Positions 44,305 through 54,277 are shown, counted from the first letter of the stretch. The stretch is DNA of 64,000 nt from Bdellovibrionota bacterium (GCA_050950765.1 JBMNIF010000002.1:576001-640000), one strand, 5' to 3'. Program-made: numbers and translations. Notes: generated by a model not told the origin, from the letters alone.

Positions 44305-45421
44305 CTAGGTTTCACTTCTTCTATTTTCGCTACTTAATAGATATTCTTCAATAAAAGCATCAAGGTCTCCGTCTAAAACCGCTTCTACTGAAGAGGTTTC
44401 GTAATTAGTGCGTAGGTCTTTTACCATTTTATAGGGGTGTAAGACGTAGCTTCTAATCTGATTGCCGAATTCAATCTTCTTTCTCTCTCCTTTTAGATCC
44501 GCCATCTTCTCTTCACGTTCCTGTTCTTGAAGTTCATAAAGCTTTGCCTTTAAGACCTTCATGGCAAAATCTTTATTCTTATGTTGAGAGCGTTCATTTT
44601 GACAGGAAGCTACTATTCCCGTTGGAAGGTGCGTTATCCTTACAGCAGACTCTGTCTTATTAACGTGTTGACCACCCGCACCTGAAGAACGGTAGGTATC
44701 TATCCTTAGATCCTTTTCATCTATCTCTAATTCTATGTCATCATCGATATCAGGAGTTACCGAAATAGAGGCAAAAGATGTGTGACGACGGGCATTTGAG
44801 TCAAAAGGGGAGATGCGCACCAAGCGGTGCACGCCCTGTTCTGATCTTAAAAAACCGTATGCAAAATCTCCTTTAATGTAGAGGCTGGCGTTTTTGATGC
44901 CCGCTTCCTCACCCGCTCTAAAATCGAGCTCTTCTACGGAAAACCCCTTCCGTTCTGCCCAACGAAGATACATGCGGTAAAGCATTAATGCCCAGTCCTG
45001 CGCTTCAGTCCCGCCGGAGCCACCGTTAACTTCGAGGATGGCGGCTTGAGGATCGTTCGGATTGTTCATCTTGCTTAAAAACTCTTGTCTTTTCAGCTTG
45101 TTAGCAAGGTCGCTAACTATTGAAACAGCTTCATTGAAAAAATCATCATCATTATCTTCTTCATATAAACTAAAAGCTGTGTGCGCTTCTTCCTGTAAAG
45201 AGAGGAGCTCATTAAAGGAGTTTATGCCGTTTTGATAACGAGAACGTTCCTTTAAGATAGCCTTAGCTTGATCGGCATCATTCCAGAAGTTTGGGTCTTG
45301 AGATTGCTCTTCCAGTTCATCTAATCTCTTCTGTTTATTGGGGATGTCAAAGAAACCCCCGTAAAGCTTCTATCTTTTCATCTAAGGAGGTTAATTGATT
45401 TCTAACTTCTGAAGGTTCCAT
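44305..45421 (-). CDS. prfB: Peptide chain release factor 2, programmed +1 frameshift
   Basis: 'SPF' and 'GGQ' motifs; upstream ORF MEPSEVRNQLTSLDEKIEALRGFL ends at CTT-TGA-C (45352-45346). Confidence 0.95.
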
Positions 45422-45478
45422 AACAATTGCCTTATAATAATATAGTATAAAAAGTAAGATCCCTTATAAGGGAGTCTT

Positions 45479-46410
45479 GCCTAAGATATCGATGATTGCA
45501 ACGATATATCTTACTGCCGTTTAAAATATAACCCGTTAAAATATAATTAAGTATAGTAAGTTAGTTATAACATATTGAAATGTCTAATGGGTATCACACG
45601 CTTCCCAAGATACCAATGATTGTGATGATATTTTTGATTGTAATGACAGGCGCAGATCGTTTTTGCGTTCCCCAAGATACCGATGATTGTGATGATACTT
45701 TTACTAACACACTTCCCAAGATACCAATGATTGTGATGATAGGTGTAGACAGGTGCAGGTTATTTTTACGCTTCCCAAGATACCAATGATTGTGATGATA
45801 TTTTTACTTAAGTCCTTGTTATTATTAAAAATATAGTTAAGTATAGTAAGTTAGTTACAACATACTGAAATGTCTAATGGGTATCGCACACTTCCCAAGA
45901 TACCGATAATCGTGATGATACTTTTTACTAATACGCTTCCCAAGATGCCAATGATCACAATGACTTCTTTATTAACACATTCCCCAAGATGCCGATGATT
46001 GCGATGATACTTTTACTAATACGCTTCCCAAGATACCGATGATTGCGATTATTTTTTTACTAACACGCTTTCCAAGATGCTGATGATTGTGATGATATTT
46101 TTACTTAAGTCCTTGTTATTATTAAAAATATAATTAAATATAGTAAGCTAGTTATAACGTACTGAAACGCTTAATAGGTATCACACGCTTCCCAAGATAC
46201 CGATGATTGCGATGATTGTGAGGCAGGGGAGATCGTTTTTATTTTTCCCAAGATACCAATGATTGTGATGATACTTTTACTAATACGCTTCCCAAGATAC
46301 CAATGATCACGATGACTTCTTTATTAACACATTCCCCAAGATACCGATGATAGTGATGACTTCTTTATTAACACATTCCCCAAGATACCAATGATTGCGA
46401 TGATTTTTTT
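45479..46410. repeat. Compound tandem array, ~15 copies of a ~28-bp core
   Basis: TTCCCAAGATACCRATGATTGYGATGAT cores, mostly 44-bp period, grouped into ~290-bp higher-order units. Confidence 0.92.
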
Positions 46411-46519
46411 CTTAACCCCCTGTTGTTATTAAAGTGTGTAGTTGTAAAATAATCTGTATCGAGACACCTTAGTTTAATATTAAACTATTTATTTATGAAG
46501 ATATTTTAACGGAAATGAG

Positions 46520-47608
46520 ATGGTCATAAAGCGAATTTTTACTACATTTATTTTTACACTACTACTTTGCACGATATGTAGTGTTCAACTTTTTGCTGAA
46601 GAGCAACCTGCTAAGGTGAGTTATAGTGTGGTGCATAAGTTTGATCCAGATATACCGCCTCAAGGTATCGCCTTTTTTAATGATAAAACTTTACTTGTAG
46701 CGATCTCTCAACACTTTGGCGCTAACAATCGTGTAGGAAAGATCGGTATCGGAAGTTATGATAGCACTCCTTTTCCAAATAAGGAGTGGGGCAGGGCACC
46801 TAAAAGTGCAGGTGGGATCGGATTGTTTAACGTTGCACAGGTGCATATAGTCGATAATATTGCGTGGATCCTTGATCAGGCGGAAAAAGAGGGCGAGCCT
46901 GCTAAAATTTTAGGTTGGGATATCGTAAAGAATCGTTTTTATAGAGTTTTTTATATCTATCCTCCCGTACTGACACCAAAATCTCTTTTACACGATTTTG
47001 TTGTTGATAATTCAAAAAATGTAATTTTTATTACTGATGAGAGTGCAGCTCTTATCGTTCTTAATACTACGACAGGTCACTCCCGACGTGTTTTAGATCA
47101 GGACCGTTCAACTATTTCTCAAGATATTCCGCTAATTATAAACGGTAAAAGTGTGAAGCTAAACGGGAAGCCTTTCTTCGCAGGCGCTGCTCCACTTGCG
47201 CTTGATTTAAAAAAAGAGTGGCTTTACTTCGGAGCTTTTTCCGGACACGACCTATACCGCATTAAGGTTTCAGACCTTATTAACACGGATCTTTCAGGAA
47301 AAGACCTCTCTGCAAGGGTTGCTCATTTTGCAAAACGTCCTATTACGGGCAGCATTGTTTTTACTAAAAAAGGTAACATTGTTTTATCTGACGTAGCTGC
47401 AAGTGGCATCGGGATGATTTCAAAGGATAAGGTCTATAAAGTTTTGTTTAAAGATAACAAGAAGTTACAGTGGATAGAGGGGCTTTTAGAAAAAGATGAT
47501 GGCTTTATTTACGGTGTTTCCACTCAAAGGCAAGGTGCGCCTTCTTTTAATGATGGTGTTAATCGCTCAACTCCACCGTTTTTAATGATTAAATTTAAAG
47601 AAGAATAG
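46520..47608 (+). CDS. Exported Yellow/major-royal-jelly-like beta-propeller protein
   Basis: Signal peptide; 'WILDQ', 'SLLHDFVVD...FITD', 'ALIVLNTTTGHSRRVL', 'WLYFGAF'. Confidence 0.75.
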   Translation: MVIKRIFTTFIFTLLLCTICSVQLFAEEQPAKVSYSVVHKFDPDIPPQGIAFFNDKTLLVAISQHFGANNRVGKIGIGSYDSTPFPNKEWGRAPKSAGGIGLFNVAQVHIVDNIAWILDQAEKEGEPAKILGWDIVKNRFYRVFYIYPPVLTPKSLLHDFVVDNSKNVIFITDESAALIVLNTTTGHSRRVLDQDRSTISQDIPLIINGKSVKLNGKPFFAGAAPLALDLKKEWLYFGAFSGHDLYRIKVSDLINTDLSGKDLSARVAHFAKRPITGSIVFTKKGNIVLSDVAASGIGMISKDKVYKVLFKDNKKLQWIEGLLEKDDGFIYGVSTQRQGAPSFNDGVNRSTPPFLMIKFKEE

Positions 47609-47680
47609 GATTTCTATCGATAAGTACCACTTGTAGAGCGGGACTTAATTTTTAGCGGTTTAAAGTAGCGACCTAAAGAT

Positions 47681-47944
47681 AGGGAGGAAAAGGGTTTTTT
47701 GCCTGTAACCACTCTTTGTAGCTGTAATGGGTAGTAAGTTATGACATATACTTTAAATTTCAGGGAGGAAAAGGGTTTTTATTTATAACTTTTTCTTTGT
47801 AGCTGTAATGGGTAGTAAGTTATGACATGAACTTGGAATTTCAGGGAGAAAAAAGGTTTTTGTCTGTAACCTTCTCTTTGTAGTTTTAAGGGGTAGTAAG
47901 TTATGACATATACTTTAAATTTCAGGGAGAAAAAAGGTTTTTGT
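47681..47944. repeat. 81-bp tandem repeat, ~3.3 copies
   Basis: AGGGAG.AAA.GGTTTTT...GGGTAGTAAGTTATGACAT units at 47681, 47762, 47843, 47924. Confidence 0.9.
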
Positions 47945-48046
47945 CGATGATGGCTACTCTTTATAAAGCGTATCTGTGGTAAAATATACTGTCTTAAATG
48001 ATTAGGTTGGGGTAAGTTACTAATTGTTTTTATTGATGATTTTGTT

Positions 48047-49369
48047 ATGTCGCCTCCAGAGATCTTAATTGGGCTTATTATTTTAGGTGGTGGAATTTTT
48101 GCTTTCTTTGCTTATCGCAAATGGGTGAATGATGCCATCTCAAACAGGAGAGCGCGGGAGCAGGAGTATTTTGATAGAATTGCGGAGCAGGCTAGTGCCA
48201 TTCAAAAAAATGCTTCAATTAAACGTAGTAGTGGCGACTTTGAAGATAAGTTTAGTAGTGCGGGTTTTTCTACTTCGGCACCATACGGTGCGCCGTATGG
48301 TGATAGTTCAGAGCCTAAAGGTGCCTTTCAAGAGGGCGTTCCGTTTTCAGAGGAGCGCACTCCTCTCACAGGTGTGATTGAAGATGCACAGTTTTCTCCT
48401 TTAACAACACAAGCCATCTCATCACAAGTTGTAGCAGCGCAGGCGGGAGAAGGGATTTTCTCTGGAATTCGTACCTTACCGTGTGCTTGGGTGACTAATG
48501 CGCCTGAAAATTGGCCGGATGTTGATTTCTCAATGGCTAATCGATCCCTTCGTTGTGTTAATTCCTCTTTTTATAATGCGAAGTTGCTTGATACCTTTAT
48601 ATGTGCTGGTTGTGTAGAAGGTGAGTCTATCCTGACGTTACAGACAAAACTTACTAATTTAGGGGTTTTGGAGATCCCGTTACAAGTTTTTACGGATGGC
48701 GTTTTTAGATCTGTTTTTATCTACCCTGAGGCAGACCTTGAAGATGCCGCTCATTTTAGTGGTGTAAGAGATCTCTTTAAGGAGTTAGGAGAAGTTGAGC
48801 CAGTTTTTTATGCAGGAAAAGTTTTGCCGCCCTCACCTCCCGCTTCGGTTTGTCGTCCTTTAAAGCCACAAGATCTAAGTGTTTATAGGGGAGTTGTGCC
48901 AGCCGGAGATTACGGTATTTGGTGGGATACTTCTCAACAAGATGATAGCGCTATAAATATTTTGCGCGAAACATATACGTTAATGGATCGCATTGAAAGT
49001 TATATTGCCGGACTTCTTGTGTCAGAACTAGGACTTAGTGCCAATCAGGGATCTCGACGGATAGCGTTACCTGAAAAAAATTTTCAAGTTCCGCTTCTTG
49101 CATATCACGGAGCTATCGTTCTGATGACCCTTTCAGCAGCAAAAGGGATTAGGTTTCATTTTAATATGGCGCATACTACACCATTTTATCGAGATTGTTT
49201 TTTAGCTGCCTTTAGAGATTTCATTAAGTTATATCGTAACCAGATTGAAAGAGATAAGGCTCCGCTAGACCATGCTACAAGTAATTCACCTCTAGCGTGG
49301 TGGAGTAGTATGGAAGAGGCCTACCGTGAAGATTCTAAAAATATGGTGATAGGTAAGATATCTCTTTAA
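48047..49369 (+). CDS. Hypothetical membrane-anchored protein
   Basis: 440 aa ORF, N-terminal TM helix, no motif recognised. Confidence 0.7.
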   Translation: MSPPEILIGLIILGGGIFAFFAYRKWVNDAISNRRAREQEYFDRIAEQASAIQKNASIKRSSGDFEDKFSSAGFSTSAPYGAPYGDSSEPKGAFQEGVPFSEERTPLTGVIEDAQFSPLTTQAISSQVVAAQAGEGIFSGIRTLPCAWVTNAPENWPDVDFSMANRSLRCVNSSFYNAKLLDTFICAGCVEGESILTLQTKLTNLGVLEIPLQVFTDGVFRSVFIYPEADLEDAAHFSGVRDLFKELGEVEPVFYAGKVLPPSPPASVCRPLKPQDLSVYRGVVPAGDYGIWWDTSQQDDSAINILRETYTLMDRIESYIAGLLVSELGLSANQGSRRIALPEKNFQVPLLAYHGAIVLMTLSAAKGIRFHFNMAHTTPFYRDCFLAAFRDFIKLYRNQIERDKAPLDHATSNSPLAWWSSMEEAYREDSKNMVIGKISL

Positions 49370-49546
49370 AAACCGCATTTCTTACATATATTTAATATGC
49401 CCGACCTAGCTTTATCAGAAGCAAAGGTACCTCTTCTTACGATTTATTTGCGGATGAGCGTCCGATCGTATATCGGCGGTTCCTTTAAACTTTATGTTTT
49501 AAGGCATCCGTTTTTTACTTTAACTCCCTAACGGGAGTTCCCCTTA
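49265..49546. repeat. 282-bp direct repeat copy 1 (3' end of upstream gene plus cassette leader); copy 2 at 51853-52134; leader-only copy at 50263-50384
   Basis: Near-identical sequence, offset 2588 bp, about 3 substitutions. Confidence 0.95.
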
Positions 49547-49576
49547 ATTAAGATATATAGAAAGGTGGGCAGGAAA

Positions 49577-49963
49577 ATGCCCCAAGGAGAGAGCGGAAAA
49601 CGATCTGTTATCTTTTGCGCCGAAACTGGCAAAGAGTTGACCCCAGCGCAGTTGCAGATGTGGTATGCACTTACCTTGAAAGCAACTGAAGATTATTGTG
49701 GTGAGGTCATTACCCCTTTTAAAAGGAAAAAGAACGAGCTCGGCGAAACTGAGATTAATTTTGATACTCACATCCTTACCTTCAAGTGGCCCAAAGGGTA
49801 CCCGCCCTCGTCGCTCTATTGGGAGACTGGTGTGGGTGGTCGTTTGACTGTTTTCCTTACCGCCACTAATGATAAGGAGAACCGTTACTGGGAGCTCCGT
49901 TTCTTTGAAGAAACGGAGCGCGAAAGAGAGCTAAAAAACTTCCTCGCAAGTCTTGTCCAATGA
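49577..49963 (+). CDS. Cassette ORF 1, hypothetical (~128 aa)
   Basis: RBS-like GAAAGGTGG; enclosed by shared flanks. Confidence 0.7.
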   Translation: MPQGESGKRSVIFCAETGKELTPAQLQMWYALTLKATEDYCGEVITPFKRKKNELGETEINFDTHILTFKWPKGYPPSSLYWETGVGGRLTVFLTATNDKENRYWELRFFEETERERELKNFLASLVQ

Positions 49964-50160
49964 CTCAAGCTCTGCAAGGTGCCTAAGATCTAAATGAAAG
50001 GGGAGGGGGCGTTCGCCAAAAGTAAAAACGGCTGCTACGGTTGCTTCGGAAGGTTCTTTCGATACTTATCGCGACGCTCACTCTCCTATTCTTAATAGAT
50101 CGATCTAGTATCTTTATCTCGGTGTTTTTATAAAACTAAGAGGGTATTACGTTTAAAAAA
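49961..50160. repeat. Shared 3' element copy 1 (other copies start at 50778 and 52581)
   Basis: TGACTCAAGCTCTGCAAGGTGC...GAGGGTATTACGTTT begins exactly at each ORF stop codon. Confidence 0.95.
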
Positions 50161-50417
50161 TATCGCTTTAGATTAGCCGCCTACTAAAGTACGGTGCTTT
50201 TACGAGTCATCTTTTTTTCAAACTTGTTTCTCAATTTTTCATAATAATTGCTACGATCCGATTTTATCAGAAGCAAAAGTATCTCTTCTTACGACTTATT
50301 TGCGGATGAGCGTCCGATCGTATATCGGCGGTTCCTTTAAACTTTATGTTTTAAGGCATCCGTTTTTTACTTTAACTCCCTAACTTCCTTTGTAAGGATA
50401 GAATTTAGGAGCTTGAC

Positions 50418-50780
50418 ATGAGCCTCAAGGCTGGAACCATCCAATTGGATGGCGGCGACCGTGCGAAATCTCTCTGTCAAAACTTTATCAGCAGAGGCGG
50501 GGGGGATTGCAAACAACACACGAGGTCTGACAAAGGAGATGAATTTCATTTCGACGATCGTAAAGTTTGTTACCCCACCGATCGTTGGCCCAGAAAAGTA
50601 GAGTACACGGGCGCAGTGGTTAGTTGGATGATCGAGGAAGATGTTTTGACAATCTTCGTTTTTGTCATCACGGATACCGAAGACATCCCTACTACTGTCA
50701 ACGAAGAAAATTGTCACTGCACGGCGACGTTCAACGATCCAGAAGTCGTGAAAAAGTTCTTGGCAGAGTTTTGCAACTGA
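50418..50780 (+). CDS. Cassette ORF 2, hypothetical (120 aa)
   Basis: RBS AGGAG; enclosed by shared flanks; ends DPEVVKKFLAEFCN. Confidence 0.75.
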   Translation: MSLKAGTIQLDGGDRAKSLCQNFISRGGGDCKQHTRSDKGDEFHFDDRKVCYPTDRWPRKVEYTGAVVSWMIEEDVLTIFVFVITDTEDIPTTVNEENCHCTATFNDPEVVKKFLAEFCN

Positions 50781-50810
50781 CTCAAGCTCTGCAAGGTGCT
50801 TAAGGTTCGA

Positions 50811-50951
50811 ATGAAAGGGGAGGGGGCGTACGCCAAAAGTAAAAAACGGCTGCTACGGTTGTTTCGGAAGGTTCTTTCGATACTTATCGCGACGCTCACT
50901 CTCCTATTCTTAATAGATCGATCTAGTATCTTTATTTTGGTGTTTTTATAA
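50811..50951 (+). CDS. Putative 46-aa basic/hydrophobic membrane peptide (in 3' element copy 2)
   Basis: MKGEGAYAKSKKRLLRLFRKVLSILIATLTLLFLIDRSSIFILVFL; AAGG upstream. Confidence 0.4.
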   Translation: MKGEGAYAKSKKRLLRLFRKVLSILIATLTLLFLIDRSSIFILVFL

Positions 50952-51093
50952 AACTAAGAGGGTATTACGTTTAAAAAATCACCTCTTTTTATTAAACTAA
51001 GTTATTAAATAGTTTAAATGCAAGCTTTAAAAAGAGTTTAAAAAGAGAGACTAAACGTTTTAAGAAGATAAAAATAATCGTAAAAAAGATTAA

Positions 51094-51658
51094 CTAAAAA
51101 GCGCCACCCCCCAACTTTGATCCACCGTTGGATCTGCCGCCATTAAAGGTTCTATTTGAAAAGCTTGAGCTTTGAGTGGGAGTAGTCTCTTTTTGAGTCT
51201 GTTGTTGCGGAGTCCAAGTGTTTTGTAAACGGATCTTTATCTTTGGTGCAGAAGCGTCATATCTGTGATTATTAGTGCGGTCAGCTATCTTCACTCCTTG
51301 ATGCGGATTATAGCCCATGCCACGACTAAGGACATCGATCTTACCGGTACTACTATAACCGTCATTATGTGCGCCATATCTATTAGCTATCTCGTCTTTG
51401 TAAGCGACACTATTTTTTTGACTGTATTTTTCATATAGAGAGGCAGCGTCACCATCATTTACAGTTGAGCCTACACTGTTAAAGTTTGAAGAGTAAGTTT
51501 GATAACACTTTTGTTGATACTCGTCAGCTTCGCGCTGGAACCGTTCTTTCTCTGCTTTTTGAGCTTTCTCTCTTTTTTATCTGTTGAGCCTTTACCTTTC
51601 TTTGAGCTCTTTCAGCATCATAAGTAGCTTGTATTTTTTCCCAAAATTCATCACCCAT
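51094..51658 (-). pseudogene. Hypothetical ~187-aa gene with a single frameshift near 51570-51580
   Basis: MGDEFWEKIQATYDAERAQRKVKAQQIKK frame continues after a +1 shift as EKAQKAEKERFQREAD... open to 51094. Confidence 0.6.
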
Positions 51659-52163
51659 AGAATAACCTTTTTAAAAAAGCTCCCCTTCTCTAGTTGACTA
51701 TTAATATAATCGAAGAGATCTCACGATCTGATTCAAGTTAAAATATAAAAAGCTCTCCTGTAAATTTATCCATTAACTGCTAGGGAGTTGGAAAGAGCGC
51801 TAAGCTTGGAGCTAGAAAGAAAAAAGTATATCCTTTAGCTAGAACCTTTTCACTAGACCATGCTACAAGCAATTCACCTCTAGCGTGGTGGAGTAGTATG
51901 GAAGAGGCCTACCGTGAAGATTCTAAAAATATGGTGATAGGTAAGATATCTCTTTAAAAACCGCATTTCTTACATATATTTAATATGCCCGACCTAGCTT
52001 TATCAGAAGCAAAGGTACCTCTTCTTACGATTTATTTGCGGATGAGCGTCCGATCGTATATCGGCGGTTCTTTTAGACTTTATGTTTTAAGGCATCCGTT
52101 TTTTACTTTAACTCCCTAACGGGAGTTCCCCTTATAAGGATAGAATTTAGGAGGGCAGATATT

Positions 52164-52583
52164 ATGTCTGCTAATAAATCTGGAGCTAGTGGCGGAAACA
52201 CACCCAGCTACAACCCTGGAGAGATAGAAACCGGTATGATCCATTTCTTTCCGAAGGAACGAGATCGGATGCTTGACATACTCTTCGGCGAAAAAGCGTA
52301 TCTTAACGACTTGCGCGGAAAGAAAGCTGATAAAAACGGTTACTCCGTGTACGCCTCTGTTCGTTGTCCCTTGCGCGAAGAAATGGACTTATACGAAGGC
52401 GCAATGGTTTTTTGGAAGCGTGAGAAGAGTCGTTTGACAGAAATATCCATTTACATCATCAGAGAGGGTGATGATGGAAACACCTTGCAGAACGTTATCG
52501 ATGGTCGAATCGGTGATGATATCACGGTGATAGTCAAGGATCCAGAAGTCGGGGAAAAGCTCTTGGAAGAGTTTTGCAACTGA
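52164..52583 (+). CDS. Cassette ORF 3, hypothetical (139 aa)
   Basis: RBS AGGAGG; enclosed by shared flanks; ends DPEVGEKLLEEFCN. Confidence 0.75.
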   Translation: MSANKSGASGGNTPSYNPGEIETGMIHFFPKERDRMLDILFGEKAYLNDLRGKKADKNGYSVYASVRCPLREEMDLYEGAMVFWKREKSRLTEISIYIIREGDDGNTLQNVIDGRIGDDITVIVKDPEVGEKLLEEFCN

Positions 52584-52613
52584 CTCAAGCTCTGCAAGGT
52601 GCCTAAGGTCTAA

Positions 52614-52754
52614 ATGAAAGGGGAGGGGGCGTATGCCAAAAGTAAAAAACGGCTGCTACGGTTGTTGCGGAAGGTTCTTTCGATACTTATCGCGACGCTC
52701 ACTCTCCTATTCTTAATAGATCGATCTAGTATCTTTATCTCGGTGTTTTTATAA
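52614..52754 (+). CDS. Putative 46-aa basic/hydrophobic membrane peptide (in 3' element copy 3)
   Basis: MKGEGAYAKSKKRLLRLLRKVLSILIATLTLLFLIDRSSIFISVFL; AAGG upstream. Confidence 0.4.
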   Translation: MKGEGAYAKSKKRLLRLLRKVLSILIATLTLLFLIDRSSIFISVFL

Positions 52755-52975
52755 AACTAAGAGGGTATTACGTTTTTAAAAATCCCCTCTTTTATTAAAC
52801 CAAGTTATTAAATAGTTTAAATGCAAAGTTTAAAAAGAGTTTAAAAAGAGAGACTAAACGTTTTAAGAAGATAAAAATAATCGTAAGTAAAAAAGAAGAG
52901 AACTTTTCTATTGCCACTCACTTAAAAGCGCTTAACTAACATACGTAAAAGTAAAAAAAATTAGGTTAAAAGTAC

Positions 52976-53034
52976 AAAAAAACGGACTAAATCTTCCTAC
53001 TCTCTTTCTGAAGGGTGTTTTAGTCCGTTTTTTT
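52976..53034. terminator. Bidirectional terminator-like hairpin downstream of ilvE
   Basis: AAAAAAACGGACTAAA...TTTAGTCCGTTTTTTT. Confidence 0.6.
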
Positions 53035-53085
53035 AGAGATATTTAAGTAAAAATATTTAATAAGACGTAGTAATTAATTTTTACA

Positions 53086-53988
53086 TCAATTTACGTACGC
53101 TAACCACTTCTGGTATTTCGGATTTTTACCGGAAGTTATTTCAGAGAAGCCCTCTTTAAACTTCGTTGTAATGGGACCGATCTTACCAGCACCTAAGATA
53201 TGATCATCAATAGATCGTATCGGTGTAATTTCAGCTGCCGTTCCGGAATAGAAAGCTTCGTCTGCCTTAAAGGCATCTTCTGGCAGAATCTCCCTCTCTT
53301 CAACAGCAATGCCCCAGTCGTTAGCTAACTGAATAACGGTGTCACGAGTAATGCCAGCTAAGATATTGCCTAATTTAGGGGTAAGAAGTTTGCCGTCTTT
53401 AACAATAAAAACATTCTCACCAGGACCTTCTGCTAAGAAGCCGTGCTCATCAAGAAGTAACCCTTCATGATATTTCGTTCCTTGCAACTCTTTTGCTGCT
53501 AACATACCGTTTACGTAGTGTCCTGCCACTTTAGCATCAGCTACTACCGCACGTGGGCTAAGTTTAATAAGGGATACGATCTTCACATCAACCATATCGT
53601 GCGGAAGATAAGCACCCCACGGCCAACACGAGATAGAGACATCAACAGGTGCACCTTGCGGGAAGACAGACATCACACCATAACCGTAATGCACCAACGG
53701 TCTGATATAACAAGCCTCGATATCGTTCTTTTTGAGCAGCTCTTTAGTCGCCGTCATGACCTCTTCTTTAGTATACGGAATTTTAAAGCCGAGTGCGTCG
53801 GCAGAGTAAAAGAGGCGGTCAATATGCTCCTTCAGTCGAAAGATAGCCCCACCATTAGGAGTTTTATAAGCACGAATGCCTTCAAAAACTGCGCTACCAT
53901 AATGAAGAGAATGCGAAACGATATGAATCTTTGCATCTTCCCATAAAACGAATTGCCCATTTAACCAGATATATTTTGTAGTTTCCAT
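53086..53988 (-). CDS. ilvE: Branched-chain amino acid aminotransferase
   Basis: 'LHYGSAVFEGIRAY', 'AKVAGHY', 'EGPGENVF', 'LAGITRD', 'GTAAEITP'. Confidence 0.95.
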   Translation of the reverse strand: METTKYIWLNGQFVLWEDAKIHIVSHSLHYGSAVFEGIRAYKTPNGGAIFRLKEHIDRLFYSADALGFKIPYTKEEVMTATKELLKKNDIEACYIRPLVHYGYGVMSVFPQGAPVDVSISCWPWGAYLPHDMVDVKIVSLIKLSPRAVVADAKVAGHYVNGMLAAKELQGTKYHEGLLLDEHGFLAEGPGENVFIVKDGKLLTPKLGNILAGITRDTVIQLANDWGIAVEEREILPEDAFKADEAFYSGTAAEITPIRSIDDHILGAGKIGPITTKFKEGFSEITSGKNPKYQKWLAYVN

Positions 53989-54277
53989 AACCTGAATTTA
54001 TCCTTATAAAAAAACAGCTGCAAGATAATTTTGCATAAGTAATCTTTTTTAACTTTTATATTTTTATACTAACTTATTATCTATACCGTAACCGTACATT
54101 AAGGAAAATCTCTTAGGCATCATCTGCACAGAAAAAGAGGGCGAAAATTGCAGATAATTATCTAAAATAATTTATATTTTTTACCTTTAAAAAAAATTAC
54201 ATTGTTTGCGGAAAATGAAGATTTTAGCTATACTGCAACAGTTTTGAGGTTCAACTTTTCCATGCTTAACCGTCTGA

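What the first reader, a model, noticed from the sequence alone, without database searches (positions are those of the whole stretch)
49265..52886. Cassette-like array: hypervariable small ORFs held between near-identical flanks
Seen: three ORFs of 120-139 aa (49577-49963, 50418-50780, 52164-52583). Each is preceded by the same ~120-135-bp leader (49411, 50263, 51999) and followed, from the stop codon itself, by the same ~200-bp element (49961, 50778, 52581). The flanks differ at only a few positions, yet the ORF bodies cannot be aligned as DNA by eye except for the last ~15 codons of ORFs 2 and 3. The proteins look like very distant paralogs (Y.GA.V.W....LT / Y..SSLYW....RLT segments; acidic helical ends KKFLAEF, EKLLEEF, KNFLASL). 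This reverses the usual pattern after duplication, where coding DNA is more conserved than non-coding. No integrase, reverse transcriptase or transposase is adjacent. Inference: a module-swapping or diversifying system (immunity, antitoxin or effector repertoire) or a non-autonomous mobile unit carrying variable cargo. Best candidate in the window for an undescribed system.
Basis: partly seen in the sequence, partly recalled or inferred. Interest (0 to 1): 0.85.

Follow-up and report, generated by a model that had tools for sequence, protein, structure and literature searches.

The report
Three-slot array of swappable gene cassettes
Three small genes of an uncultured bacterium from digesters and bioreactors sit in near-identical non-coding frames, and related strains carry other genes in the same frames, so the frames look like sockets for swapping gene versions; what the proteins do is unknown.

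Summary
Three co-oriented ORFs (128, 120 and 139 aa) each sit between a 122-nt leader (97.5-98.9% identical between copies) and a ~203-nt trailer (about 92-96%). The ORF bodies are unalignable as DNA. ORF2 and ORF3 are distant paralogs and ORF1 is not detectably related to either.

Where ORF2 and ORF3 can be codon-aligned, third codon positions are 47% identical, against 94% in the last 16 codons and ~96% in the trailer. The bodies are therefore old or unrelated, the frames are young, and the switch is abrupt. That fits recombination, not in-place hypermutation.

Contigs of related strains in other public runs keep the frames and slot junctions but hold other ORF bodies. One foreign contig joins the upstream 440-aa gene directly to a 76%-identical ORF3 allele.

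The frames occur only at this locus. I found no adjacent recombinase, no reverse transcriptase in the genome, no attC core sites and no match in Rfam, Pfam, NCBIfam, PADLOC or PHROGs.

Best reading (0.55): locally duplicated single-gene expression cassettes whose frames serve as homology arms for allele replacement. The proteins are small, acidic and cytoplasmic; an immunity-like role is a guess.

The closest analogues are phage PeSL cassettes and Bacteroidales rAID arrays. This scan noted similar arrays on other genomes. Novelty: new variant of a known kind.

The parts
48047..49369 (+). Upstream 440-aa gene. It has an N-terminal membrane helix and a long helix, a disordered linker, and a conserved ~290-aa C-terminal domain of an unnamed family. 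Its last 105 bases lie inside the repeated block.
   Evidence: ORF. 236 representative clusters at E <= 1e-3. No significant match in Pfam, NCBIfam or PADLOC. AF2 mean pLDDT 82.
49265..49410 (+). Segment A, copy 1: the last 35 codons of the 440-aa gene plus a spacer. It is the left part of the 282-nt repeat shared with unit 3.
   Evidence: 49265-49546 = 51853-52134, 98.9%, 3 mismatches.
49411..49532 (+). Leader, copy 1 (122 nt). It contains the hairpin CCGAT..ATCGG and an AU-rich stem followed by a run of six T.
49577..49963 (+). ORF1, 128 aa, acidic (pI 5.5), with no membrane segment. It is unrelated by BLASTP to ORF2 and ORF3.
   Evidence: Codon-usage score 0.246; none of 4000 off-frame control pieces scored that high.
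49961..50165 (+). Trailer, copy 1. It lacks the 3' arm of the terminator-like hairpin and has one A fewer in the A-run.
50166..50262 (+). Unique 97-nt spacer between trailer 1 and leader 2.
   Evidence: Contigs in runs X2, X7 and X8 bridge it (records 3, 12, 18).
50263..50384 (+). Leader, copy 2.
50418..50780 (+). ORF2, 120 aa, pI 4.85, 6 Cys. It is a distant paralog of ORF3.
   Evidence: Codon-usage score 0.206.
50778..51083 (+). Trailer, copy 2 (to 50980), plus the extension shared with unit 3 (50981-51083). It ends in a terminator-like hairpin.
51094..51658 (-). Minus-strand ORF of about 190 aa, broken by one frameshift in a homopolymer run (around 51570-51580). It has no family match.
   Evidence: The same stretch is present in X8 and X9 contigs (records 20, 27).
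51853..51998 (+). Segment A, copy 3: an orphan remnant of the last 35 codons of the 440-aa gene plus a spacer.
   Evidence: 97% identity over residues 406-440.
51999..52120 (+). Leader, copy 3.
52164..52583 (+). ORF3, 139 aa, pI 4.9. A 76%-identical allele (P0002) exists in another sample.
   Evidence: Codon-usage score 0.274.
52581..52886 (+). Trailer, copy 3 (to 52784), plus the shared extension (52785-52886). It has a terminator-like hairpin.
52614..52754 (+). 46-codon ORF inside the trailer (also at 50811-50951; frameshifted in unit 1). It would encode a basic N-terminus followed by a hydrophobic helix. It is probably not a gene.
   Evidence: Codon-usage score -0.11 to -0.12; none of 2000 real in-frame pieces scored that low. 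The A-run length also varies in run X8 (table 4).

Best explanation
The locus is an array of three self-contained single-gene cassettes. Each cassette uses the same non-coding frame: a 122-nt structured 5' leader and a ~200-nt structured 3' trailer, which in slots 2 and 3 ends in a terminator-like hairpin.

The frame was multiplied by local tandem duplication. One duplication breakpoint lies inside the upstream 440-aa gene and left a 35-codon remnant at 51853. This much is read directly from the sequence.

The ORF bodies are old, very divergent or unrelated versions of small, acidic, cytoplasmic proteins. They are exchanged between slots and between strains by ordinary homologous recombination, with the conserved frames as homology arms. 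Crossovers fall at the frame edges or within the first and last few codons. The same recombination between frame copies deletes or duplicates slots. These steps are inferred from the breakpoint pattern and from contigs of related strains.

No dedicated recombinase is needed. The likely biological meaning is a strain-variable repertoire kept diverse by frequency-dependent selection, as for orphan immunity or other self/non-self or anti-attack proteins. That last step is analogy only.
For: 1. The frames are young and the bodies are old.
- Flanks differ at 3 of 282, 3 of 122 and 6 of 207 bases.
- Units 2 and 3 are identical at 289 of 302 bases after the stop.
- The 100 codon-aligned positions of ORF2/ORF3 before the last 16 codons are 48% identical, with third positions at 47%. 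The last 16 codons are 88% identical, with third positions at 94%.
- Selection on the protein cannot saturate synonymous sites while leaving the flanks intact.

2. The breakpoints are mosaic.
- Units 1 and 3 share 49265-49546.
- Units 2 and 3 share the ribosome-site region up to 7-11 nt before the ATG, and also the last 16 codons.
- Unit 1 joins the trailer 27 nt or fewer before its stop.

3. Related strains differ in the bodies but not the frames (likeness >= 85).
- Run X8 keeps the slot junctions at 97.7-98.7%: 5 other letters in 213, 11 in 830 and 5 in 395. Its ORF2 copy has 40 other letters and 7 gaps in 430.
- One X8 contig of 666 letters lays 156 letters on leader 3 and the ORF3 start, and 80 letters on the ORF1 end and trailer. 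About 430 letters in between lie on nothing.
- Another X8 contig joins the leader-1 end (49566) to the trailer (50797), with unknown letters between.
- Run X9 has 246 loose letters in front of an ORF1-like end plus trailer, and 147 loose letters behind the first 19 bases of ORF3.

4. There is a slot-deletion or alternative arrangement. P0155 is 81 aa and 100% identical to the end of the 440-aa protein. It shares a 1055-nt contig with P0002, which is 76% identical to ORF3. Of the 34 differences between ORF3 and P0002, 30 fall in residues 1-68.

5. The assembly is sound. Runs X2 and X7, from different studies, hold identical contigs across every unique junction (records 1-16). Depth over the leader in X2 is about 2.6 times that of the ORFs.

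6. The ORFs look coding. Their codon-usage scores are 0.21-0.27, a level reached by at most 0.1% of off-frame pieces. P0002 keeps the frame and the length.

7. No dedicated machinery was found. The nearest tyrosine recombinase is 154 kb away, the genome has no reverse transcriptase, and there are no attC core motifs.
Against: - No recombination event was observed directly. The strain evidence rests on short metagenome contigs laid at 85% likeness, and some of these could come from other organisms or be chimeric.
- Only three copies exist, in one genome. The only other genome of the family lacks the frames, but it is 85% complete.
- Gene conversion confined to the flanks could give the same within-genome pattern.
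- Promoter-like sites are no more frequent than in shuffles: 9 found against 9.6 expected. 'Self-contained expression cassette' is therefore inferred.
- No RNA holder was listed, so transcription is unknown.
- The function is unsupported. There is no family hit and no significant fold match. The ESM-Atlas leads for ORF1 score 0.90 or less and name immunity families only in a minority of cluster members.
Confidence: 0.55

Rival explanations
1. The ORFs are ancient paralogs that diverged in place. Only the flanks are kept alike, by intragenomic gene conversion under selection for a shared regulatory RNA (a 5' leader with an attenuator-like hairpin and a structured 3' UTR). There is no exchange of bodies between strains.
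For: ORF2 and ORF3 are true paralogs. The leader and trailer fold somewhat better than shuffles, with z -2.6 and -2.2. Leader and trailer are complementary on the + strand only: -72 to -76 kcal/mol against -57 on the minus strand, while random genomic controls give -48 (sd 7.7) and -52 (sd 8.2). One compensatory pair and two G-U-preserving changes occur among the units.
Against: ORF1 is unrelated to ORF2 and ORF3. Related strains carry other bodies in the same slots, and one contig has a different neighbour arrangement. Two or three predicted pairs are broken in some unit. In the minimum-energy fold of trailer 1, spacer and leader 2, each element folds on itself (z -1.8).
Confidence: 0.15
2. 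This is a site-specific cassette system of the integron or rAID type. Trailer plus leader would form a large imperfect palindrome recognised by a recombinase encoded elsewhere.
For: The genes are co-oriented, short, and separated by conserved intergenic sequence, which is two of the three rAID features quoted in 10.1101/2025.05.03.651265. Trailer and leader are collinearly complementary, with 109 predicted pairs including one perfect 14-bp helix.
Against: There is no tyrosine recombinase within 154 kb. There are no GTTRRRY or RYYYAAC core sites. The junctions between slots differ (a 97-nt spacer in one, about 0.9 kb with a broken gene in the other). Breakpoints are scattered rather than fixed. 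The frames occur nowhere else in the genome.
Confidence: 0.08
3. This is a polymorphic toxin/immunity-like locus. The 440-aa membrane protein would be the toxin or effector, ORF1 its partner, and ORF2 and ORF3 orphan partners. The repeated 3' gene fragment would be the homology handle, as in orphan CdiA-CT/CdiI or Rhs modules.
For: A 3' fragment of the upstream gene precedes the orphan slot. The downstream proteins are small, acidic and cytoplasmic. Residues 172-264 of the 440-aa model weakly resemble a restriction-endonuclease-like fold: 1y88, Z 7.6, rmsd 3.0, 88 aligned.
Against: The C-terminus of the 440-aa protein does not vary with the cassette. It is 100% identical over 81 aa next to a 76% ORF3 allele, and P0004 is 98% identical overall. 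In the 3 distant-homologue loci I opened, out of 10 found, no small downstream ORF array is present. Z 7.6 is within the noise range stated by the tool.
Confidence: 0.08
4. The conserved element is itself the gene. The trailer would encode a 46-aa membrane peptide, like a type I toxin or small membrane protein, and the variable ORF would be its partner.
For: An intact 46-codon ORF with a basic N-terminus and a hydrophobic helix is present in 2 of 3 trailers (hydropathy). The surrounding RNA is strongly structured. One codon differs as CTT / TTG / TTT, that is Leu / Leu / Phe (read).
Against: Its codon-usage score is -0.11 to -0.12, and none of 2000 real in-frame 46-codon pieces scored that low. 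It is frameshifted in unit 1, and the same A-run is shorter in X8 contigs (table 4). The non-coding parts of the trailer are as conserved as the ORF.
Confidence: 0.07
5. The array is an assembly artefact of a repeat.
For: No single contig in the laid runs spans a whole unit together with both of its neighbours.
Against: Every unique junction is covered by identical contigs in two runs from different studies, and depth over the leader is about 2.6 times that of the ORFs. Seven runs hold 81-94% of the sampled words of the stretch.
Confidence: 0.02

Closest known systems
PeSL (promoter-early stem-loop) regulatory cassettes of T4-type phages (Arbiol et al. 2010, PMC2839356; I read the abstract and sections 14 and 16)
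   Same: Conserved non-coding regulatory modules of about 100 bp flank small genes that have no homologues. Differences between close relatives map to the genes between the modules. The proposed mechanism is homologous recombination between modules, which carries expression signals along with the gene. No dedicated recombinase is involved.
   Different: PeSLs are single intergenic modules (promoter plus stem-loop) in phage hyperplastic regions, present in many copies per genome. Here there are two distinct modules (a 122-nt leader and a ~200-nt trailer) in a bacterial chromosome, at one locus only. Promoter activity is not shown and no circles were seen.
rAID-1 (recombinase-associated acquired interbacterial defence) arrays of Bacteroidales (bioRxiv 10.1101/471110 and 10.1101/2025.05.03.651265; passages read)
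   Same: [quoted passage not shown] The products are small and fast-diverging. The content varies between strains.
   Different: rAID is defined in part by a XerD-family tyrosine recombinase next to the array. None lies within 154 kb here. No homology to known immunity families was found. There are 3 genes rather than up to 31. The locus is not on a recognisable mobile element.
Integron cassette arrays and integrase-less attC clusters
   Same: Unrelated small ORFs are separated by conserved, partly palindromic non-coding repeats.
   Different: There is no IntI gene, no attC core sites and no fixed crossover point. The repeats are split into a leader and a trailer separated by unique DNA.
Orphan toxin-tip/immunity modules behind cdiA, rhs, mafB and tpsA genes (from my own knowledge; PMC4287609 and PMC3848433 seen only as search listings)
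   Same: A repeated fragment of the 3' part of the upstream gene precedes a downstream orphan slot. Recombination between the copies would bring the orphan behind the main gene, and that arrangement is seen in another sample.
   Different: In those systems the variable part includes the toxin tip of the large gene. Here the large gene's end is constant and only the separate small ORF varies.

Membership tests
Integron / attC cassette array | IntI tyrosine recombinase with attI next to the array | tested here: not met
   The 3 PF00589 hits in the genome are at C2:471421, C2:1062602 and C3:312627. The array is at C2:625265-628886.
Integron / attC cassette array | attC sites with R''/R' core motifs (RYYYAAC ... 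GTTRRRY; motifs recalled from memory) | tested here: not met
   There are 0 matches to either motif in the three trailer-to-leader stretches.
rAID-1 array | Adjacent XerD-family tyrosine recombinase | tested here: not met
   Pfam scans of 15 neighbouring ORFs show housekeeping genes or no hit.
rAID-1 array | [quoted passage not shown] | tested here: met
   Three ORFs of 120-139 codons, all on the + strand, with 122-nt and ~203-nt conserved flanks.
rAID-1 array | Genes homologous to known immunity genes | tested here: inconclusive
   No hit in Pfam, NCBIfam or PADLOC. The ESM-Atlas leads (Imm52 in 16% and TsiV in 38% of cluster members, scores 0.84 and 0.80) are below the tool's bar. Foldseek's top row is a CdiI at E 0.12, on a model with pLDDT 57.
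PeSL-type regulatory cassette shuffling | Conserved intergenic module holding a promoter and a terminator/attenuator stem-loop | tested here: inconclusive
   Terminator-like hairpins are present in each leader and at the end of trailers 2 and 3. Promoter-like sites are no more frequent than chance: 9 against 9.6.
PeSL-type regulatory cassette shuffling | Differences between close relatives map to the genes between the modules | tested here: met
   X8 and X9 contigs; P0155 and P0002 on one contig.
Diversity-generating retroelement | Reverse transcriptase and a template/variable repeat pair | tested here: not met
   There are 0 PF00078 hits in the genome, which is 94% complete. The ORF bodies have no second copy in the genome.
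IS / MITE-type mobile element | Multiple dispersed copies, terminal inverted repeats and target-site duplications | tested here: not met
   nhmmer profiles of leader and trailer find only the 3 local copies; the next best hits are at E 0.19 and 4.2. No direct repeat appears at the unit edges by eye. The leader/trailer complementarity is weak at DNA level, with only one 17-of-18 match.
Polymorphic toxin with orphan immunity modules | The variable C-terminal toxin tip of the upstream gene co-varies with the downstream gene | tested here: not met
   The upstream C-terminus is 100% identical over 81 aa beside a 76% ORF3 allele.
Type I toxin-antitoxin | A translated small hydrophobic peptide with an overlapping antisense RNA | not testable with these tools
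   Codon usage and frameshifts argue against translation. No RNA data were available.

The most novel reading that the evidence does not exclude
This would be a recombinase-free 'plug-in' gene-exchange platform. A conserved 5' leader and 3' trailer, mutually complementary on the mRNA strand (109 predicted pairs, + strand only), form a reusable RNA and DNA frame. Into it a population swaps unrelated small ORFs, so the frame supplies both expression control and the homology arms. Together with the look-alike arrays this scan noted in Patescibacteria, a planctomycete and a CPR bacterium, it would point to a widespread, undescribed class of chromosomal cassette systems that do the job of integrons without an integrase.
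Probability: 0.18. Interest if true: 0.8.

Novelty: new variant of a known kind. Interest (0 to 1): 0.55.

Why it matters
If the reading holds, this is a compact chromosomal example of gene-version swapping that needs only conserved non-coding frames and ordinary homologous recombination. That mechanism is documented for T4-type phages but hardly at all for bacterial chromosomes.

The locus also marks a small, strain-variable protein repertoire in an uncultured Bdellovibrionota lineage found in anaerobic digesters, bioreactors, wastewater and landfill samples. It would be a ready marker for strain-level ecology, and a candidate for immunity-type or recognition functions with no known family.

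The frames themselves are candidates for a new cis-regulatory RNA pair.

Tried and rejected
- **Rfam.** An E-value scan of 47000-54000 gave 0 matches.
- **Protein family libraries.** Pfam, NCBIfam, PADLOC and PHROGs scans of ORF1-3, P0002, the 46-aa ORF and the 440-aa protein gave nothing above cut-offs.
- **Word-indexed homology searches.** ORF3 found itself plus P0002. ORF1 and ORF2 found only themselves.
- **Exact-pattern scans.** A 24-nt leader word and a 22-nt trailer word gave 0 hits in JGI metagenome contigs and 0 in viral contigs.
- **blastn of 49265-52886.** No match against plasmids or phages.
- **The other genome of the family (G001).** It has no frames. It also gave no match to the ilvE-like or MRJP-like neighbours, so synteny could not be compared.
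- **The 440-aa protein in the phylum.** It was not found in the 123 other genomes of the phylum with this query.
- **The search for related loci.** The smaller alignment A5 worked.
- **Structure of ORF3.** The AF2 model has mean pLDDT 57. It gave no Foldseek match at E <= 0.001 and no VIA-align Z of 5 or more, so no fold is assigned.
- **Structure of the 440-aa protein.** The model has no Foldseek match at E <= 0.001. The second sub-domain (about residues 288-430) was not searched on its own.
- **Complex prediction.** The 440-aa C-terminal domain with ORF3 returned no verdict (score 0.00).
- **RNA runs.** No RNA holder was listed.
- **Gaps in cover.** Parts of the stretch without cover in X8 and X9 are not used as evidence.
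- **Replication origin.** The idea that the AT-rich gap at 45.1-46.5 kb is the origin was dropped, because none of the 23 one-mismatch DnaA-box matches in the window lies there.
- **In-place hypermutation.** Rejected on the saturated synonymous sites.
- **Paper searches.** Three searches found no paper describing this locus or these frames. No supplementary file was opened.

Full report
**What is there**

Window 49265-52886 holds three co-oriented units.

- Unit 1: segment A (49265-410; the last 35 codons of a 440-aa gene plus a spacer), leader (49411-532), ORF1 (49577-963, 128 aa) and trailer (49961-50165).
- A unique 97-nt spacer follows unit 1.
- Unit 2: leader (50263-384), ORF2 (50418-780, 120 aa), trailer (50778-980) and an extension of about 100 nt (to 51083).
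- Next comes a minus-strand ORF of about 190 aa broken by one frameshift (51094-658), followed by about 190 unique bases.
- Unit 3: segment A again (51853-998), leader (51999-52120), ORF3 (52164-583, 139 aa), trailer (52581-784) and the same extension (to 52886).

Pairwise blastn gives the following matches.

| Units | Region | Identity |
|---|---|---|
| 1 vs 3 | 49265-49546 = 51853-52134 | 98.9% |
| 1 vs 2 | leaders | 97.5% |
| 2 vs 3 | 50263-50411 = 51999-52153 | 91.6% |
| 2 vs 3 | 50731-51083 = 52534-52886 | 94.4% |
| 1 vs 3 | 49958-50161 = 52577-52783 | 95.7% |
| 1 vs 2 | 49934-50161 = 50751-50979 | 92.2% |

Nothing aligns between the ORF bodies.

**Is it more than chance or an artefact?**

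- Leader and trailer occur three times each, only here, in the 2.64-Mb genome. nhmmer profiles find nothing else better than E 0.19.
- Two public runs from different studies (X2, X7) hold contigs identical to the window across every unique junction. These are leader end-ORF-trailer start for all three ORFs, trailer 1-spacer-leader 2, and extension-broken gene-segment A.
- Depth over the leader in X2 is 148 against about 56 for the ORFs.
- Seven of the 24 listed runs hold 81-94% of the sampled words of the stretch.
- Misassembly is unlikely.

**Are the ORFs genes?**

I trained a codon-usage log-odds score on 388 long ORFs of this genome.

- ORF1-3 score 0.246, 0.206 and 0.274 in their own frame.
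- Real 130-codon pieces average 0.364 (sd 0.097), and off-frame pieces reach 0.206 in 0.1% of cases.
- For ORF2 the antisense frame scores as high (0.246).
- ORF3 has a 139-aa allele of the same length, 76% identical, in another sample (P0002).
- ORF2 and ORF3 are paralogs: 36% identity over 78 aa, E 1e-9.
- ORF1 matches neither.
- All three are acidic (pI 4.85-5.5), hydrophilic, and have no membrane segment.

The 46-codon ORF inside the trailer is probably not a gene. It scores -0.11 to -0.12, and none of 2000 real in-frame pieces scored that low. It is frameshifted in unit 1 by a shorter A-run. The unit-2 A-run is likewise one base shorter in two X8 contigs.

**The key contrast**

- In a protein-guided codon alignment of ORF2 and ORF3, the last 16 codons are 88% identical (third positions 94%).
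- The other 100 aligned codons are 48% identical (third positions 47%).
- The flanks differ at 3 of 282, 3 of 122 and 6 of 207 positions, and at 13 of 302 after the stop for units 2 and 3.
- Saturated synonymous sites beside nearly intact non-coding DNA cannot come from fast protein evolution in place.
- Either the frames are young copies (duplication or conversion) or the bodies were brought in. In both cases the boundary is a recombination junction.
- The junctions differ from pair to pair, which fits homologous crossovers and does not fit one fixed site.

**Related strains**

I laid contigs of four runs at 85% likeness or more.

Run X8 (digester):
- It keeps trailer 1-spacer-leader 2 with 5 other letters in 213.
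- It keeps extension-broken gene-segment A with 11 in 830.
- It keeps the 440-aa gene with 5 in 395.
- Its ORF2 copy has 40 other letters and 7 gaps in 430.
- One 666-letter contig lays 156 letters on leader 3 plus the first 55 bases of ORF3, and 80 letters on the last 23 bases of ORF1 plus the trailer. By my subtraction, about 430 letters in between lie on nothing.
- A further contig joins the unit-1 ribosome-site region (49566) to the trailer (50797), with unknown letters between.

Run X9 (landfill):
- One contig has 246 loose letters ahead of an ORF1-like end plus trailer.
- One contig is 88.6% like the ORF3 start. Its loose end, translated by me, reads like the P0002 allele.
- A minor contig diverges after the first 19 bases of ORF3.

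From the protein collection:
- An 81-aa fragment 100% identical to the end of the 440-aa protein shares a 1055-nt contig with P0002.
- In that strain the 440-aa gene is therefore followed directly by an ORF3-type allele. This is the product expected from a crossover between the two 282-nt repeats.
- Of the 34 differences between ORF3 and P0002, 30 lie in residues 1-68, so this allele is itself a mosaic.

Caveat: these are short metagenome contigs, and the tool warns that joints at likeness under 95 can come from other organisms.

**Machinery**

- The genome (94% complete) has three tyrosine-recombinase hits, the nearest 154 kb away, and no reverse transcriptase.
- The neighbours within about 13 kb are parA, parB, a bactofilin, ATP-synthase genes, prfB, an MRJP-like protein, an ilvE-like aminotransferase, gyrB, secA and proS.
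- The trailers have no integron core motifs.
- Rfam has no match.

**The frames as RNA**

- Each leader has a 5-bp hairpin and an AU-rich stem followed by TTTTTT.
- Each trailer folds into a long imperfect hairpin, and in units 2 and 3 it ends in a terminator-like hairpin. The z-scores are modest (-2.6 and -2.2).
- Leader and trailer are collinearly complementary. In unit 3 there are 109 predicted pairs (40 GC, 55 AU, 14 GU), including a perfect 14-bp helix between the leader's T-run and the trailer's A-run.
- For the 122-nt core against the trailer, duplex energy is -72 to -76 kcal/mol on the + strand and -57 on the minus strand. Controls with random genomic pieces give -48 (sd 7.7, minimum -66.5, n = 300) and -52 (sd 8.2, minimum -73.6).
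- Among the three units, one pair changes on both sides (G-C / A-T / G-C), two keep pairing through G-U, and two or three are broken.
- In the minimum-energy fold of trailer 1-spacer-leader 2, each element folds on itself (z -1.8).
- I rate the 5'-3' pairing as suggestive only. If real, it acts on the + strand RNA.

**The upstream gene**

- The 440-aa protein has a membrane helix, a long helix, a disordered linker and a C-terminal domain of about 290 aa.
- The domain belongs to an unnamed family with 236 representative clusters at E <= 1e-3, 14 of them at 1e-30 or better.
- None of the 25 members scanned has a Pfam hit on that domain.
- The AF2 model has mean pLDDT 82. Residues 172-264 have a helix-three strands-helix-strand order. 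They weakly resemble restriction-endonuclease-like folds: 1y88 at Z 7.6, rmsd 3.0, 88 aligned; Card1 at Z 6.8. Foldseek finds nothing at E <= 0.001.
- Ten distant homologues lie in MAGs of an archaeon, Bacteroidota, Acidobacteriota and Planctomycetes.
- In the three loci I opened, no small-ORF array follows the gene.
- I therefore treat this gene as a bystander whose 3' end was caught in a duplication. A functional link is not excluded.

**Function of the small proteins**

The function is unknown.

- No family library matches them.
- The ORF3 model is poor (pLDDT 57) and gives no significant fold match. The immunity proteins near the top of both lists (CdiI at E 0.12; TriTu at Z 4.0) are within noise.
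- The ESM-Atlas feature search puts ORF1 at 0.90 to unnamed clusters of 113-116 aa. It scores 0.84 and 0.80 to clusters in which a minority of members carry Imm52 or TsiV. The tool counts these as leads only.
- Small size, acidity, cytoplasmic location, strain-level replacement and stacking of several versions all resemble orphan immunity genes. That is an analogy, not a result.

**Comparison with known systems**

- The nearest mechanisms are the PeSL cassettes of T4-type phages. There, recombination between conserved promoter/stem-loop modules shuffles the orphan genes between them (PMC2839356; abstract and sections 14 and 16 read).
- The rAID arrays of Bacteroidales are also close. They are defined by a tyrosine recombinase, co-oriented short genes and conserved intergenic motifs (passages of 10.1101/2025.05.03.651265 and 10.1101/471110).
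- This locus shares the array form and the variability. It lacks the recombinase, is chromosomal and single-locus, and has two different frame modules.
- It fails the tested defining features of integrons, DGRs, IS/MITE elements and polymorphic-toxin orphan modules (see the membership table).
- Earlier notes of this scan describe similar leader-and-tail or junction-framed arrays on other genomes. I did not test them.
- The taxon label 'uncultured Bdellovibrionota' also comes from such notes, not from my own calls.

**Verdict**

The feature is real and strain-variable, and is best explained by recombination-driven cassette exchange inside duplicated non-coding frames. The function of the proteins is unknown. 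Novelty: new variant of a known kind. Interest: 0.55.

Noticed in passing
window 47681-47942: About 3.2 tandem copies of an 81-nt unit (82-84% identical to the first copy) lie directly upstream of the 440-aa gene. The unit occurs only here in the genome and has no Rfam match.
   Followed up: partly
window 51094-51658 (-): An ORF of about 190 aa is broken by one frameshift in a homopolymer run near 51570-51580. It has no Pfam hit. The stretch is also present in the X8 and X9 strain contigs, so it is a stable part of the array scaffold.
   Followed up: partly
window 48479-49366 (residues ~145-440 of the 440-aa protein): The C-terminal domain of the 440-aa protein belongs to an unnamed family of about 290 aa. 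The family has 236 representative clusters, is scattered over archaeal, Bacteroidota, Acidobacteriota and Planctomycetes MAGs, and is sometimes fused to TPR or WD40 repeats. The AF2 model is confident (pLDDT 82) but has no clear fold match. Many members start with MG followed by basic residues.
   Followed up: partly
window 45070-46520: A 1.4-kb AT-rich stretch (GC 0.32-0.36) has no ORF of 110 aa or more. The cumulative GC-skew minimum of the profiled 44-57 kb stretch falls near 46.2-46.6 kb, between prfB/parAB and gyrB. None of the 23 one-mismatch DnaA-box matches in the window falls there, so an origin is not supported.
   Followed up: partly
window 46520-47608 (+): A 362-aa protein with an N-terminal hydrophobic leader matches the major royal jelly protein family (PF03022, E 3e-10). 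It lies just upstream of the 440-aa gene.
   Followed up: no
window 44305-45069 (-): The release-factor ORF covers only 254 aa, with the PCRF domain matched from profile position 95. This is probably the downstream part of prfB with its usual programmed frameshift. I did not check it.
   Followed up: no
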